In this document: positions 20,966-25,514 of the stretch, in pieces
How the letters are laid out: the number at the start of each line of letters is the position of its first letter
Numbering within the stretch: position 1 is the first letter of the stretch
From: Escherichia phage JSE
Sequence record: EU863408
DNA length: 64,000 nt
Reading direction: 5' to 3' (one strand)
Made by a program: the position numbers and the translations under genes
Notes under the pieces: model-generated
Seen by the model: only the letters and a program-made list of their open reading frames with translations
Databases searched by the model: none
What the model was told of the DNA's origin: nothing

Positions 20966-23017
20966 TTACATTTTAAATTTATCTGGCATTGCGTCTACAG
21001 ATACCAGATCAGCGATAAGCTGACGTAGAGTTGCCTTATCTGCTTTCTTACGTTCGGTTTTAGCTTCGCTAATGAAGCTGGAGAAAGACAGGTCAGAAGC
21101 AGGTTTAACAACACCTTCACGGATGAATGCATCACCGTCTGCGATCATCTCGCCAGATTCTTGTAATGCTGCCAGTTCATTTTTGTTCATAATATGTGCC
21201 TCAATGTAATAAGTTTCTTGTGAATCCGTCGATGCCGTAGCACGAGTTACCGTATCAAAGGATAACACAACACCGCGAGGAAGTAAAATCTCGCATTCTT
21301 TGTAAGCAAATGCTTTGTTACCTACTGGCAATACAGGGATGTTTTCCGCGCCAGCAATGGAGAAAGCAACATTAGCGCCACCTTCACCGCGAGAGCCAGC
21401 CATAGAATCAACACCAGCAACGGCACTAGCCACGTTTGCATTCCAGCCGCCAAAAATGTTAGGTGCAAGGGAAGTGCTCACATAGTTTTTAAAGTAAAAC
21501 GCTTTTTGCTTACGTGCAGTTTCCCACATTTGCGACCGGAAGTCCATACCACGATACAGAATAGTACCCGGATCAAGTTTAACGCCATAGTTGGAGAAGG
21601 CATTATCCAGTGCATCGCACATCTTGACCAATTCTTCTGGATCTGAGATTCCTTCAAACTCTTCCAGCTTACGGTCGGTTAGGAAGTTGTTCATATTGAT
21701 GTATGCTGCATCGGCATATTCGCTCAACACAAAACCTTCCGCGCCTGGCAGATCAAGATCAATATTTGCCATCATTTCACCCATGTTGCTAGCAATTGCT
21801 TCAAACATACCGGAAGCAACATTACGTAGGGCATCGGTTTTAATCTGGGTGATATTACTACGCAGCATTTCAGCTTTTACATCTGCTGGCATAGACTGGT
21901 CTACTCGATCCATTGCCAGTGCGGTGATCTTGTTTTCGAATACTTCCTCGCTCATGATTTCTTTTAAGCGTTTGATTGATGCTGCGATAACTTCCGCAGA
22001 CAACGGATCATATTGATCCTGAACTTTTACCAGTTCGCTTACTGCGTATTTTGCATCGGCTTCGCTTTCAAAAATAGTACGCATGAAACCATAGCGAGTG
22101 ATAATATCACTTGTCCAGTCATTCAGAGAACGGGCGGTTGAACGTTCTAAGGCTTGACGATCAATCAGAGTATTAAACTGTTTCTTAGGTTCTGCTTCGG
22201 TGATATCTTCTTCCGGTTTAAGATTAATTTTTTCTGGATGATTCACATAGTCGCTGTTATAGGTCGCTTGAGTTTTCAGCATTTCTTCTTTAGTCAAACG
22301 AGATTTAGCCGCTACGCGTTGTTCCGCTTCCGCGTTTCGTTCTTCTTCTGACACAAGACTAGCCGCATACGCTTCATCTTTAGTCAGAGATTCACCAGTA
22401 GCCTTAGATACCCAGCGATCACCTAAATCACTTTCTACTTTAGTGAACAAGGAATCATCAAGTTTAATCCCTTTAATCTTATCAATCGCCATACCGCGAC
22501 GCTTGACAACAACTAAAGCGATCTTTTTGCTGGTCATTACTTCCTGCTGGAATACTTCAAACTTCGGTGTACGACGCACCAAACGCTCTATAACGCGCTT
22601 AACCAGTTCGGTCTTACCTTTCATGCGGGATACGTTAAAACGGAACATAACAGCGTCTAGTTGCGCTTTACGGGCTGTTTCCATAACCACATCAAAAGCA
22701 CTTGACATAACTGCAATCGGGTTATCGCCTAGACCATTTTTAAGCTGTACAATACGACCGCTTTTGTTCATTTCGCACAGTACAACATGTGCGGTCTTGT
22801 CACCCATACGAATGATTTTAGGTGTTTTGTTGGTGAAGTTACAAAGACGGACAATCACATCTTTATCGCGTGTCTGTACTGCAAAAAGCTGTTTAGGATT
22901 CTGCTTAGGCTTTAAGCACTGTACCGGGGCAATACTACCAAAGTTTTCTTCCTCTTCCGTCAACAGCCATTTCTCGAAAGATTCAATCATTAGATCGTCG
23001 ATTTCTAAGTTAAACAT
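20966..23017 (-). CDS. alt: Alt ADP-ribosyltransferase (packaged)
   Basis: 683 aa (T4 Alt is 682 aa); C-terminal YRG...STS...ECE motifs; position after gene 54. Confidence 0.85.
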   Translation of the reverse strand: MFNLEIDDLMIESFEKWLLTEEEENFGSIAPVQCLKPKQNPKQLFAVQTRDKDVIVRLCNFTNKTPKIIRMGDKTAHVVLCEMNKSGRIVQLKNGLGDNPIAVMSSAFDVVMETARKAQLDAVMFRFNVSRMKGKTELVKRVIERLVRRTPKFEVFQQEVMTSKKIALVVVKRRGMAIDKIKGIKLDDSLFTKVESDLGDRWVSKATGESLTKDEAYAASLVSEEERNAEAEQRVAAKSRLTKEEMLKTQATYNSDYVNHPEKINLKPEEDITEAEPKKQFNTLIDRQALERSTARSLNDWTSDIITRYGFMRTIFESEADAKYAVSELVKVQDQYDPLSAEVIAASIKRLKEIMSEEVFENKITALAMDRVDQSMPADVKAEMLRSNITQIKTDALRNVASGMFEAIASNMGEMMANIDLDLPGAEGFVLSEYADAAYINMNNFLTDRKLEEFEGISDPEELVKMCDALDNAFSNYGVKLDPGTILYRGMDFRSQMWETARKQKAFYFKNYVSTSLAPNIFGGWNANVASAVAGVDSMAGSRGEGGANVAFSIAGAENIPVLPVGNKAFAYKECEILLPRGVVLSFDTVTRATASTDSQETYYIEAHIMNKNELAALQESGEMIADGDAFIREGVVKPASDLSFSSFISEAKTERKKADKATLRQLIADLVSVDAMPDKFKM

Positions 23018-23368: not shown

Positions 23369-23548
23369 TTAGAACATTTTTGAAATTAATTCTGCTTTGA
23401 TTTCGCAGAGAACATCTAAAGATTTCTCGTCACCCGCTTTTGCTGCTTCTGCTTGCATTTTTGAAATGGCTTCAATCTCAGTGCAATTATAAGCCGCTTG
23501 AACTTTAGCGATTGCGATGATTGCCGATTCGATGGTTAAGTGTTTCAT
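23369..23548 (-). CDS. hypothetical small protein (59 aa)
   Basis: AAGGAG site 8 nt upstream; preceded by promoter cassette at 23581-23609; not in track. Confidence 0.4.
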   Translation of the reverse strand: MKHLTIESAIIAIAKVQAAYNCTEIEAISKMQAEAAKAGDEKSLDVLCEIKAELISKMF

Positions 23549-23580
23549 GTTTGATTCTCCTTTCGTTTCGGTATGTGTGT

Positions 23581-23609
23581 ATTATAGGGGATCGATGATC
23601 CCCTGTCAA
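23581..23609 (-). promoter_or_regulatory. early promoter with stem-loop spacer (PeSL-like)
   Basis: TTGACA, palindromic spacer GGGGATCATCGATCCCC, TATAAT, then AAGGAG site. Confidence 0.6.
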
Positions 23610-23617
23610 CAACTTTT

Positions 23618-24136
23618 TTAGTTATTTTTTAATTGCTCATCTTGCAATAGGGCAATCACATGCTGGCGATGTTCTTCCGATTGAGGCACACCGAAAAAGT
23701 TTGTTTTGTAGAAATACTCTAATCGGTCTTCTCGTGTGCTCTCTTCCATCATGATCGCGGGTAGTCCGAGATTTCGGAAACGTCGCTTTTCTGCTGGCGT
23801 AAAATCACTGTAATACAACATAGAATCATCATTACCAGCAATGCTAAACTCATCCTTCATAAAGGAGAATATTGCGTTTAAACGCTGTTTACCGTCCACG
23901 ATTTCGATCTCATAGCGAGAGCCATCATCAATCTTAGCCATTGCGATAGCACCAACCGGAAAATCATTAATCAGGTTTTCGATAAACATACGTTTGTTTT
24001 CTGTGTCCCATACTAAAGGACGCTGATAATCTGGGTTCATGTTGATATAGCCATCTTCTAACCATGCATCATAAACAGAGATGACAAAGTTTTTAGTATT
24101 GGTATAGTAACGGCGTTTAGGCGTTAAACGGTTCAT
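23618..24136 (-). CDS. DUF262 / ParB-like nuclease-fold domain protein
   Basis: DYQRPLVW and IVDGKQRLNAI motifs typical of DUF262; start placed at ATG 24136 with AGGAG site. Confidence 0.5.
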   Translation of the reverse strand: MNRLTPKRRYYTNTKNFVISVYDAWLEDGYINMNPDYQRPLVWDTENKRMFIENLINDFPVGAIAMAKIDDGSRYEIEIVDGKQRLNAIFSFMKDEFSIAGNDDSMLYYSDFTPAEKRRFRNLGLPAIMMEESTREDRLEYFYKTNFFGVPQSEEHRQHVIALLQDEQLKNN

Positions 24137-24137
24137 G

Positions 24138-24467
24138 TTATAGTCTCCTGAATGGATCATCACGTAAATCAATATCTTTTAAGAACTCATCCCATGAATG
24201 CCGGATATTGTTCTTAATTCTCCAGATAAGCGCAGGGATTGAACGCTCTCCCATCTGGAAGTAAGGATCATATGATCCGTATGCCCAATATGCTACTACA
24301 ATTCCACAATCAGCGCAATAGTATTCTATTTCACTTGCTGGCGACCAAAGTCCATCAATATGATCGGTGATCTTGCTTTCGATGTTATGGCTATGACAAT
24401 CAGGGCAACGGATGCAATGACCTTGTTTATCGTAATTTGACGTTAGCGAATACTTAAACAATCTCAT
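24138..24467 (-). CDS. zinc-ribbon protein
   Basis: Two CxxC pairs (CIRCPDC and CADC). Confidence 0.5.
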   Translation of the reverse strand: MRLFKYSLTSNYDKQGHCIRCPDCHSHNIESKITDHIDGLWSPASEIEYYCADCGIVVAYWAYGSYDPYFQMGERSIPALIWRIKNNIRHSWDEFLKDIDLRDDPFRRL

Positions 24468-25183
24468 TATAGATCCTTATTTGCTTCAAATACTGCCTTT
24501 GCGAATCCTCGCGGGGTAAGTGACCTTATAGTCTTTGTTTTCGTTCCTTTCCCGCCTAGCTTAGAATGCTGTTTACTGTACCCTTTATTAATCTGCAACG
24601 GTTTCTTTTCTGGCATTATAAAGCCTTGTCCGGACCATAAGCAAGTCTTTTTCGGGTACATATCACGGGCGGCAATATACTCAGGAAACGTAGGATGCTT
24701 ATCATCTTCCGGCAAATAACCGCCATATTCCCACGGATGGAACATATAATCAGGCTTACGCCACATGCTAGAGATAACGCTTACAGGATTCTCTATCATG
24801 TAGGGAACTCCTAGCCATTCACCCAAATAAGCGGTTATTTTAGCTGCCCTTACATCATGAACTTGAATCAATGGTCCTTGCTCTCGTTTCTTTCGTTCAA
24901 AGTGTGCAGCGCCACTAACAGCTAAATTGGTGCACGGTGGGAATGCAAAGATAATATCCGGTTTCCCCCATTCAAGGTCCATTGCTCTTTCCAGCCAGTT
25001 CAAATCAATCCAGGTGTTTACATAGGTAATGTTTGGATGTTCAAATCTGGTATTATACTTTTTGTATGTACCGTGGTCGGCGTCATCCGCATTAAAGCAG
25101 ACTACCTTATGACCTGCTTTAGCCCATTCTAGCCCCATTATCCCCGATCCGTCAAAGTTGCAGAATATTAATTTTTGTTTCAC
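24467..25183 (-). CDS. SAM-dependent methyltransferase-like protein (cytosine-5 MTase-like motifs)
   Basis: FxGxG motif I (FDGSGIMG), PC motif IV (FPPCTNLAVSG), ENP in place of ENV; lacks an obvious target-recognition domain. Confidence 0.4.
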   Translation of the reverse strand: MKQKLIFCNFDGSGIMGLEWAKAGHKVVCFNADDADHGTYKKYNTRFEHPNITYVNTWIDLNWLERAMDLEWGKPDIIFAFPPCTNLAVSGAAHFERKKREQGPLIQVHDVRAAKITAYLGEWLGVPYMIENPVSVISSMWRKPDYMFHPWEYGGYLPEDDKHPTFPEYIAARDMYPKKTCLWSGQGFIMPEKKPLQINKGYSKQHSKLGGKGTKTKTIRSLTPRGFAKAVFEANKDL

Positions 25184-25431
25184 GCTGCCCCCATTGGTTT
25201 GATAGTAACAGAATCTAAAAGACCTTTGTTAGCCAGTTCGCGGCAAGTTTTCAGATCCGCAACTTCCCAGCCAGCCGCAATCAGGTTATCAATGAGGCTG
25301 TTAGCAACTTCTTCGCTCATGAAAGAGCACTGTTTGCCGATGGTGTAGCGTACACGCTGTAATTTCAGTTTACGGAAGCCTTTAACGTTCAGGTCTTTAG
25401 CGATTTTCTTTGCGGTTTCGATGTTAGCCAT
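25180..25431 (-). CDS. hypothetical protein, first gene of a four-gene operon
   Basis: 83 aa; overlaps the next start; promoter cassette at 25472-25500. Confidence 0.5.
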   Translation of the reverse strand: MANIETAKKIAKDLNVKGFRKLKLQRVRYTIGKQCSFMSEEVANSLIDNLIAAGWEVADLKTCRELANKGLLDSVTIKPMGAA

Positions 25432-25471
25432 TGTTTGATTCTCCTAAGTGGTATCTCGTCTTGATGGTTGT

Positions 25472-25500
25472 ATTGTAGGGGAGTTATCCTCCCCTGTCAA
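25472..25500 (-). promoter_or_regulatory. early promoter with stem-loop spacer (PeSL-like)
   Basis: TTGACA, spacer GGGGAGGATAACTCCCC, TACAAT; drives the four-gene operon 25431 to 23618. Confidence 0.55.
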
Positions 25501-25514
25501 CACTTTTTATAAAA

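What the first reader, a model, noticed from the sequence alone, without database searches (positions are those of the whole stretch)
23618..25500. Early four-gene operon: small protein, cytosine-5 MTase-like protein, zinc ribbon, DUF262/ParB-like protein
Four tightly coupled minus-strand genes (25180..25431, 24467..25183, 24138..24467, 23618..24136) with overlapping stop/start codons sit behind one early promoter next to the alt locus. The 238 aa protein has Rossmann MTase motif I (FDGSGIMG) and a PC-type motif IV (FPPCTNLAVSG) plus ENP, like a minimal cytosine-5 methyltransferase without a recognition domain. The last gene has DUF262/ParB-like motifs (DYQRPLVW, DGKQR). ParB-like NTP-binding domains combined with methyltransferases occur in anti-restriction and DNA-modification systems, so this may be a DNA-modification or anti-defence module not present in T4.
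Basis: inference. Interest (0 to 1): 0.65.

Follow-up and report, generated by a model that had tools for sequence, protein, structure and literature searches.

The report
Early accessory operon with phage Dcm
This is a real early operon of an RB49-like (Krischvirus) phage that holds a compact cytosine-5 DNA methyltransferase of an already characterised phage family, a nuclease-less DUF262 protein and two small proteins, but comparison with other phages shows a shuffled set of independent accessory genes, not a dedicated DNA-modification module.

Summary
Four tightly packed minus-strand genes (83, 238, 109 and 172 aa) lie between two copies of the repeated early promoter/stem-loop cassette (PeSL) of RB49-like phages. 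The window is a Krischvirus, 99% identical to vB_EcoM_011D4.

- **172-aa protein:** it is a true DUF262/ParB-Srx domain (Pfam 4.8e-20) with no nuclease domain.
- **"Module" idea:** not supported. Most Krischviruses carry a fifth gene that is deleted here. A roughly 70%-identical metagenomic relative has the operon without the methyltransferase. Homologues of the methyltransferase, zinc-ribbon and DUF262 proteins in other phages have unrelated neighbours.

The methylation site and the role of the DUF262 protein remain unknown. The finding is ordinary to mildly interesting.

The parts
25452..25508 (-). PeSL-type early promoter cassette that drives the operon. The -35 TTGACA starts at 25500 and the -10 TACAAT ends at 25472. 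The 17-nt spacer is itself a G/C stem-loop (GGGGAGGATAACTCCCC).
   Evidence: repeat family D1; sequence identical in GEC-3S, where it is annotated as a promoter. PeSLs are defined in PMC2839356.
25180..25431 (-). Gene A, 83 aa, function unknown. It is restricted to Krischvirus and one diverged relative.
   Evidence: phrog_14908 at 5e-59; tblastn finds it only in 55 Krischvirus records; 72% identical copy in L008; weak PADLOC hit to the C-terminal part of RT_UG35, E 2.6e-5.
24467..25183 (-). Gene B, 238 aa: a compact phage Dcm-like cytosine-5 DNA methyltransferase. Its motifs are F10-x-G12-S-G14, P82-P83-C84, E131-N-P133 and K178-K179. The GTG start was created by deletion of the upstream 81-aa gene.
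   Evidence: experimental data on the K42 homologue.
24138..24467 (-). Gene C, 109 aa, a putative zinc-ribbon protein (C21xxC24 ... C51xxC54).
   Evidence: Pfam Zn_Ribbon_TF E 5.6e-4, below its cut-off; phrog_2993 at 5e-34; homologues in Nonagvirus, Felixounavirus and Proteus phages with different neighbours.
23618..24136 (-). Gene D, 172 aa: a stand-alone DUF262 (GmrSD_N, ParB/Srx fold) domain with YQRxxVW, DGKQR and GVPQSEEH motifs and no nuclease domain.
23561..23617 (-). PeSL cassette immediately after the D stop codon. The stem-loop GGGGATCATCGATCCCC sits between a consensus TTGACA and TATAAT. It is the promoter of the next gene (23548..23369) and a likely attenuator of operon read-through.
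   Evidence: PMC2839356.

Best explanation
The region is a PeSL-bounded early transcription unit in the hyperplastic, accessory-gene region next to alt in a Krischvirus (RB49-like phage). Host sigma-70 RNA polymerase should transcribe it straight after infection, and the close or overlapping stop and start codons suggest translational coupling.

- **Gene B** encodes an autonomous, compact AdoMet-dependent cytosine-5 DNA methyltransferase of the widespread phage "Dcm-like" family. Cys84 would attack C6 of a flipped cytosine, Glu131 would protonate N3, and the conserved stretch of about 75 residues after the ENP motif would act as a small recognition region, comparable to the small one of DNMT3. 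The likely benefit is protection of replicating phage DNA from some host restriction enzymes. The known cost is that such enzymes trigger retron Ec86/Eco1.
- **Gene D** encodes a nuclease-less ParB/Srx-type nucleotide-binding domain of unknown target.
- **Gene C** encodes a small zinc-ribbon protein, and **gene A** a lineage-specific small protein.

The genes are independent accessory cargo brought together and reshuffled by recombination. They are not parts of one machine.

Shown here: the gene structure, the promoter consensus, the fold and motifs, the family membership and the variable gene content. Inferred: methyltransferase activity of this particular protein, its target site, its anti-restriction benefit, and nucleotide binding by D.
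For: - **B, link to experiment:** 55% identity over the full length to KarlJaspers bas06_0055. C84, E131, K178 and K179 match the C82, E128, K175 and K176 mutated in the K42 Dcm. That enzyme alone raised 5mC on msDNA (LC-MS) and triggered retron Ec86.
- **Independence of the genes:** there are 1,520 phage records with B homologues, and the sampled neighbourhoods lack DUF262 and zinc-ribbon genes. L008, about 70% identical, has A-X81-C-D without B. The X81 gene is deleted here by recombination between similar 5' gene ends. An extra small ORF lies between C and D in kaaroe and L008. D homologues in other T4-like and metagenomic phages have unrelated neighbours.
- **PeSL framing:**
Against: - This protein itself scores below Pfam's cut-off for PF00145 (15.7 against 22 bits).
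- Motif VIII (QxRxR) is not recognisable.
- Krischvirus TB34, which carries an identical operon, had no detectable modified nucleosides by HPLC/MS. Any methylation must therefore be rare, below detection, or absent from virion DNA.
- CCWGG is 3.4-fold depleted in the window. That is not expected if the enzyme fully protected this site.
- The loop at residues about 186-215 differs between the RB49 type (YSxQHxKLGG) and the K42 type (DNPGWAKxGG), so the target site may differ.
- The CCWGG specificity of the K42 enzyme was assumed from host Dcm and not mapped.
- Tight coupling of C and D, and their co-occurrence in L008, leaves open a C-D functional pair.
Confidence: 0.7

Rival explanations
1. 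One reading: the methyltransferase and the DUF262/ParB-like protein, with the zinc ribbon, work together as one DNA-modification or anti-defence module. D or C would load or target a methyltransferase that lacks its own recognition domain.
For: The genes are co-transcribed with close or overlapping stop and start codons, and the arrangement is kept in about 55 Krischvirus genomes. In Mydovirus and Henunavirus an unrelated NPPY amino-methyltransferase lies about 1 kb upstream of a short DUF262 gene. Fusions of ParB-like domains with methyltransferases exist on plasmids and phages (my own knowledge, not tested here).
Against: The K42 homologue works alone in E. coli. L008 keeps A-X81-C-D without the methyltransferase. 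No DUF262 or zinc-ribbon gene lies next to B homologues in four other phage groups. No methyltransferase lies next to D homologues in RB43, Slopekvirus, phiM12 or three metagenomic phages. The Krischvirus genomes are 97-99% identical, so their shared gene order is a single observation.
Confidence: 0.1
2. D, possibly with C, is an anti-defence decoy. As a nuclease-less copy of the N-terminal sensor/NTPase domain of host DUF262 nucleases (GmrSD/BrxU, SspE-like, NsnA, PD-T4-2), it would form dead heterodimers with them or titrate their nucleotide or DNA ligand. It would act independently of the methyltransferase.
For: PADLOC NsnA E 1.9e-20 and PD-T4-2_A E 4.9e-12 over the domain. The exhaustive search shows that the closest 150 relatives are all short (92-344 aa), a distinct clade of nuclease-less proteins. 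The gene is expressed early. It is present in several T4-like lineages. Hosts do use GmrS-only partners together with GmrSD (PMC12373910). BrxU restricts at least one Krischvirus isolate.
Against: There is no close host counterpart: no DNA-level match in 5,426 E. coli genomes, and the plasmid hits at 38% identity lie in phage-like segments. RB49 is not restricted by CT596 GmrSD because it has ordinary cytosine, so the need for such a decoy is unclear. There is no experimental hint.
Confidence: 0.12
3. B is not an ordinary DNA 5mC methyltransferase. It would either be inactive on phage DNA or take part in the unexplained cytosine hypermodification reported for the Krischvirus SAP, for example by transferring a group other than methyl.
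Against: TB34 (unmodified) and SAP (modified) have identical operon coding sequences. In this locus they differ only by a 79-bp extra PeSL copy and single-base indels. The 55%-identical K42 enzyme makes 5mC. The same family occurs in more than 1,500 phages of many groups.
Confidence: 0.03

Closest known systems
Phage Dcm-like C5-cytosine methyltransferase of Hanrivervirus K42 / KarlJaspers (bas06_0055), the trigger of retron Ec86/Eco1 (bioRxiv 10.1101/2023.08.16.553469)
   Same: Same length class (236 against 238 aa), 55% identity end to end, and the same catalytic and binding residues (C, E, KK). Both belong to phrog_757 and are single-domain enzymes.
   Different: The loop before the LGGK motif differs (YSKQHSKLGG here, DNPGWAKTGG in K42), so the target site may differ. 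The genomic setting also differs: an early hyperplastic region of a T4-like phage here, a replication module of a siphovirus there. No experiment exists on the Krischvirus protein.
Classical C5-cytosine DNA methyltransferases (Pfam PF00145: M.HhaI, E. coli Dcm, DNMT3A/B catalytic domain)
   Different: About 90-240 residues shorter than bacterial enzymes. It scores below the Pfam gathering cut-off. Motif VIII is not recognisable, and motifs IX and X are compressed into RSLTPRGFAKAVFEAN. Only a region of about 75 residues stands where a target-recognition domain would be.
GmrSD / BrxU type IV restriction enzymes
   Same: Protein D has their N-terminal DUF262 domain with the QR and DGxQR motifs.
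   Different: D has no DUF1524/HNH nuclease domain and ends at residue 172. It is phage-encoded and expressed early, and its closest relatives are all short proteins.
PeSL (promoter-early stem-loop) ORFan cassettes of RB49/phi1 (PMC2839356, PMC4122927)
   Same: Repeated sigma-70 consensus promoter plus G/C stem-loop elements flank the unit. Gene content varies between close relatives.
   Different: The cassette carries four or five genes, whereas the PeSL cassettes studied were single ORFans. The X81 deletion seen here used similar 5' gene ends and not the PeSLs.

Membership tests
C5-cytosine DNA methyltransferase (PF00145 / phage Dcm-like phrog_757) | Motif I FxGxG (AdoMet binding) | tested here: met
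   F10-D-G12-S13-G14, invariant in 26 family members.
C5-cytosine DNA methyltransferase (PF00145 / phage Dcm-like phrog_757) | Motif IV Pro-Cys with the catalytic cysteine | tested here: met
   P82-P83-C84 is invariant and aligns with C82 of the K42 Dcm, which was mutated in the inactive variant.
C5-cytosine DNA methyltransferase (PF00145 / phage Dcm-like phrog_757) | Motif VI ENV glutamate | tested here: met
   E131-N132-P133 is invariant and aligns with E128 of the K42 Dcm.
C5-cytosine DNA methyltransferase (PF00145 / phage Dcm-like phrog_757) | Motif VIII QxRxR, and a target-recognition domain between motifs VIII and IX | tested here: inconclusive
   Only W141-R142-K143-P144 is present, followed by a conserved stretch of about 75 residues (150-218). 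The Pfam match covers only residues 10-100.
C5-cytosine DNA methyltransferase (PF00145 / phage Dcm-like phrog_757) | Score above the curated Pfam cut-off | tested here: not met
   15.7 bits against a cut-off of 22 for this protein. At family level, 16 of 26 members hit at E<0.1, best 1.3e-6. The phrog_757 profile matches at 2.8e-90.
C5-cytosine DNA methyltransferase (PF00145 / phage Dcm-like phrog_757) | Catalytic-domain fold | tested here: met
C5-cytosine DNA methyltransferase (PF00145 / phage Dcm-like phrog_757) | Transfer of methyl to C5 of cytosine in DNA | not testable with these tools
   Reported for the 55%-identical K42 enzyme (LC-MS of msDNA). TB34 virion DNA showed no detectable modified nucleoside.
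[quoted passage not shown] | N-terminal DUF262 domain | tested here: met
   PF03235 E 4.8e-20, residues 28-122.
[quoted passage not shown] | C-terminal DUF1524 / His-Me nuclease domain | tested here: not met
   The protein is 172 aa and ends with the DUF262 core, with no second Pfam domain. The closest 150 relatives are 92-344 aa.
ParB/Srx nucleotide-binding fold | ParB N-terminal fold with a GxxR-type phosphate-binding motif | tested here: met
   DGKQR is invariant. Foldseek top hits are PadC, Noc, ParB and BrxU, at marginal E-values of about 1e-3. Only one of the five AlphaFold models was confident.
ParB/Srx nucleotide-binding fold | Helix-turn-helix DNA-binding and C-terminal dimerisation domains of true ParB | tested here: not met
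   The model shows a single domain of 172 aa.
Coupled ParB-like + methyltransferase anti-restriction module | Fusion or conserved adjacency of the two components across lineages | tested here: not met
   Adjacency is seen only in Krischvirus. L008 lacks the methyltransferase. Other lineages carry one gene or the other with unrelated neighbours.
PeSL-bounded cassette of RB49-like phages | Flanking repeated sigma-70 promoter plus stem-loop elements, with variable gene content | tested here: met

The most novel reading that the evidence does not exclude
The stand-alone, nuclease-less DUF262 protein D, perhaps together with the zinc-ribbon protein C that also accompanies it in the methyltransferase-free relative L008, is a new kind of phage counter-defence. 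It would be a mimic of the sensor/NTPase domain of host DUF262 nucleases (GmrSD/BrxU, Nsn, PD-T4-2, Ssp) that poisons their dimers or ligand binding.
Probability: 0.1. Interest if true: 0.6.

Novelty: new member of a known kind. Interest (0 to 1): 0.25.

Why it matters
The practical value is modest.

- **Methyltransferase:** the window's methyltransferase belongs to the phage Dcm-like family now known to trigger retron Ec86/Eco1. This predicts that Krischviruses may be sensed by that retron, and that they may carry sparse 5mC that bulk HPLC misses.
- **Gene shuffling:** the locus is a clear example of gene-by-gene shuffling in a T4-type hyperplastic region. At least four operon versions are seen.
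- **Open question:** short nuclease-less DUF262 proteins recur in T4-like and other phages, and nobody knows what they do. A knockout and plating study would be cheap.
- **Krischvirus modification puzzle:** this operon is identical in the reportedly modified (SAP) and unmodified (TB34) Krischvirus isolates, so it is not the explanation for that difference.

Tried and rejected
- Single-sequence and profile HMM searches of PDB sequences with B found nothing. The same search with D gave only chance sliding-clamp hits.
- NCBIfam has no model for A, B or D.
- I tested whether RB43 ORF183c, which lies upstream of its DUF262 gene, is a zinc-ribbon homologue of C. It is not (E 0.4).
- I tested whether the methyltransferase near the DUF262 gene in Mydovirus DP is a B homologue. 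It is not; it is an NPPY amino-methyltransferase.
- I looked for differences between TB34 and SAP in this locus that might explain their reported modification difference. The only differences are an extra 79-bp PeSL copy and homopolymer indels, and the coding sequences are identical.
- I looked for a host copy of D. There is no DNA-level match in E. coli genomes, and the two best full-length plasmid hits inspected lie in phage-like segments, not in recognisable leading-region anti-defence islands.
- I tried to infer B's target from site statistics. CCWGG is depleted, as are many other restriction sites, so no conclusion was possible.
- I did not verify directly that T4 lacks these genes.

Full report
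**What the window is.** The stretch 23500-25600 matches 62 phage records. Nearly all are Krischvirus (RB49, Phi1, GEC-3S, TB34 and others) at 97-99% identity, with vB_EcoM_011D4 the best at 99.1%. The region lies beside the alt gene (20966..23017), in a block of small early genes separated by annotated sigma-70 promoters.

**Check of the observation.**
- A/B overlap as GTGA. B/C overlap as TAATG. C and D are separated by one base, with an AGGAG ribosome-binding site inside the end of C.
- A promoter, TTGACA-17-TACAAT (25500..25472), precedes A. A perfect TTGACA-17-TATAAT (23609..23581) starts just after the stop codon of D.
- Both promoters belong to a 57-nt repeat with five copies in 4.7 kb, in which the 17-nt spacer is a G/C stem-loop.
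- These repeats are the PeSL cassettes (promoter-early stem-loop) described for RB49 and phi1, which act as strong early promoters, terminators and recombination sites (PMC2839356).

The operon is therefore real and early. It is also a PeSL-bounded cassette in a hyperplastic region.

**Gene content is not fixed.**
- RB49, Phi1, GEC-3S, TB34 and most others carry a fifth gene, X81 (81 aa), between A and B.
- In this window, and in G2248 and E26, X81 is precisely deleted. The junction shows recombination between the similar 5' ends of the two genes (GTGAAAAGAAAATTAAT and ATGAAACAAAAATTAAT). This is why B has a GTG start here.
- Phage kaaroe has an extra small ORF between C and D.
- A metagenomic contig, L008, matches only Krischviruses, at about 70% nucleotide identity. 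It carries A (72% aa identity), X81 (68%), C (67%), a 46-aa ORF and D (56%), in that order. X81 and C overlap, so there is no room for a methyltransferase.

B is therefore a facultative insert in this operon.

**The 238-aa protein B.**
- *Profile matches.* Pfam DNA_methylase is only a sub-threshold hit for this protein (E 0.01, 15.7 bits against 22, residues 10-100). The PHROG family "DNA methyltransferase" phrog_757 matches at 2.8e-90. Sixteen of 26 diverse family members hit PF00145, best E 1.3e-6.
- *Family size.* tblastn finds 1,520 phage records (Dhillonvirus, Drexlerviridae including Webervirus and Hanrivervirus, Vequintavirinae and others). The large protein collection holds more than 5,700 clusters at 90% identity, almost all 225-250 aa.
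- *Conserved residues.* FxGxG, PPC, ENP, WR, KK, LGG and IRSLxxRG are invariant.
- *Experimental link.* Wang et al. (bioRxiv 10.1101/2023.08.16.553469) found that escape mutants of Hanrivervirus K42 from retron Ec86 all disrupt a 711-bp dcm gene. Expression of that Dcm alone raises 5mC in msDNA, and a C82A/E128A/K175A/K176A mutant is inactive. K42 is 95.4% identical to KarlJaspers. The 711-bp KarlJaspers gene bas06_0055 encodes a protein 55% identical to B over its whole length, and those four residues align with C84, E131, K178 and K179.

B is thus a member of an experimentally supported family of compact, autonomous phage C5 methyltransferases. The description "without a recognition domain" does not fit. 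Residues 141-218 are strongly conserved, and the homologue needs no partner.

**What stays open for B.**
- Its target site is unknown. The K42 study took CCWGG from host Dcm by analogy. It also worked in dcm-plus MG1655, where msDNA 5mC was nevertheless low without the phage enzyme.
- The loop before LGGK differs between the RB49 type and the K42 type.
- In this window CCWGG is 3.4-fold depleted (23 observed, 78 expected). Many other restriction sites are depleted too, and twelve six-base palindromes expected 6-17 times are absent.
- HPLC/MS of Krischvirus TB34, whose operon coding sequence is identical to that of SAP, found no modified nucleoside. This fits sparse site-specific 5mC, roughly 0.2% of cytosines if the site were CCWGG (my estimate from the site count). 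It would also fit inactivity on virion DNA.

**The 172-aa protein D.**
- Pfam GmrSD_N (DUF262) matches at 4.8e-20. PADLOC models of DUF262-containing defence proteins also match (NsnA 1.9e-20, PD-T4-2_A 4.9e-12).
- The motifs YQRxxVW, DGKQR and GVPQSEEH are invariant among its relatives.
- The one confident AlphaFold model (pLDDT 87.9; the other four scored 50-62) resembles the ParB/Noc/PadC/BrxU N-terminal domains, at marginal E-values of about 1e-3.
- There is no nuclease domain.
- An exhaustive profile search finds 17,153 relatives. The closest 150 are all short: a class of about 165-185 aa and a class of about 270-290 aa with an N-terminal extension that matches no Pfam family.
- Homologues at 35-38% identity occur in RB43, Slopekvirus, Mydovirus, Henunavirus, phiM12 and some phage-like plasmid segments.
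- Their neighbours are unrelated to A, B or C. The one exception is an unrelated NPPY methyltransferase about 1 kb upstream in Mydovirus and Henunavirus.

**Proteins C and A.**
- C has the Cys pattern of a zinc ribbon. Its homologues in Nonagvirus, Felixounavirus and Proteus phages lie among other small early or replication-region genes.
- A is confined to Krischvirus and L008.

**Interpretation.** The best-supported reading is a shuffled early accessory operon. Its only assignable enzyme is a Dcm-like C5 methyltransferase acting on its own. It probably protects against some restriction systems, at the known price of triggering retron Eco1. The idea of a methyltransferase/ParB-like module fails the test of conserved association. 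A decoy role for the nuclease-less DUF262 protein is the most interesting reading left open, and nothing here supports it beyond domain similarity and early expression.

**Verdict.** The finding is a new member of known kinds, of low to moderate interest.

Noticed in passing
window 1-64000: Restriction-site avoidance is extreme. Twelve six-base palindromes expected 6-17 times each are completely absent (AAGCTT, ACCGGT, AGCGCT, CAGCTG, CCATGG, CCGCGG, CTGCAG, GAATTC, GCATGC, GGATCC, GGTACC, GTCGAC). RCCGGY is 0 observed against 25 expected, CCWGG 23 against 78, and GGCC 26 against 75. GATC is not depleted.
   Followed up: partly
window 25181-25183 (A/B junction); L001 5680-5925: An 81-aa gene present in most Krischviruses is precisely deleted here by recombination between the similar 5' ends of that gene and of the methyltransferase gene. 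This leaves the methyltransferase with a GTG start. G2248 and E26 share the deletion.
   Followed up: yes
L008 1-1605 (ENA ERZ27254724 k141_110561): An uncultured Krischvirus-like contig, about 70% nucleotide identity, carries the operon as A-X81-C-(46 aa ORF)-D with no methyltransferase. A PeSL-like element appears to follow D, judged only from a reverse-frame ORF resembling those over the window's PeSLs.
   Followed up: yes
L003 3051-3129 (phage SAP) compared with L002 3050 (phage TB34): SAP is reported to carry hmC/glucosyl-hmC and TB34 is unmodified (PMC13390438). Within this 8-kb locus they differ only by a 79-bp extra PeSL copy just downstream of the DUF262 gene, plus single-base indels. 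The coding sequences of the operon are identical.
   Followed up: partly
window 25183-25431 (protein A, residues 12-75): The 83-aa protein A matches the C-terminal part (positions 722-785 of 938) of the PADLOC model for the defence reverse transcriptase RT_UG35, E 2.6e-5. The meaning is unknown.
   Followed up: no
L018 7303-9513 (Klebsiella phage DP) and L020 1896-4016 (Erwinia phage pEa_SNUABM_56): In these Vequintavirinae an NPPY-type amino-methyltransferase, unrelated to B, lies about 1 kb upstream of a short DUF262 gene in the same orientation. This could be coincidence or a weak hint of an association.
   Followed up: partly
proteins P0127, P0144, P0147, P0150, P0156 and others: The closest relatives of D include a second size class of about 270-290 aa. 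These carry an N-terminal extension of about 110-140 residues that matches no Pfam family.
   Followed up: partly
L022 936-1115 (phage kaaroe); L008 841-981: Some relatives have an additional small ORF (59 or 46 aa) inserted between the zinc-ribbon and DUF262 genes.
   Followed up: no
L011 2962-4366 (Salmonella phage PVP-SE1 gp009, gp010): Two adjacent genes are both annotated as similar to RB49p189, the methyltransferase, which suggests a tandem pair of paralogues. I did not verify this.
   Followed up: no
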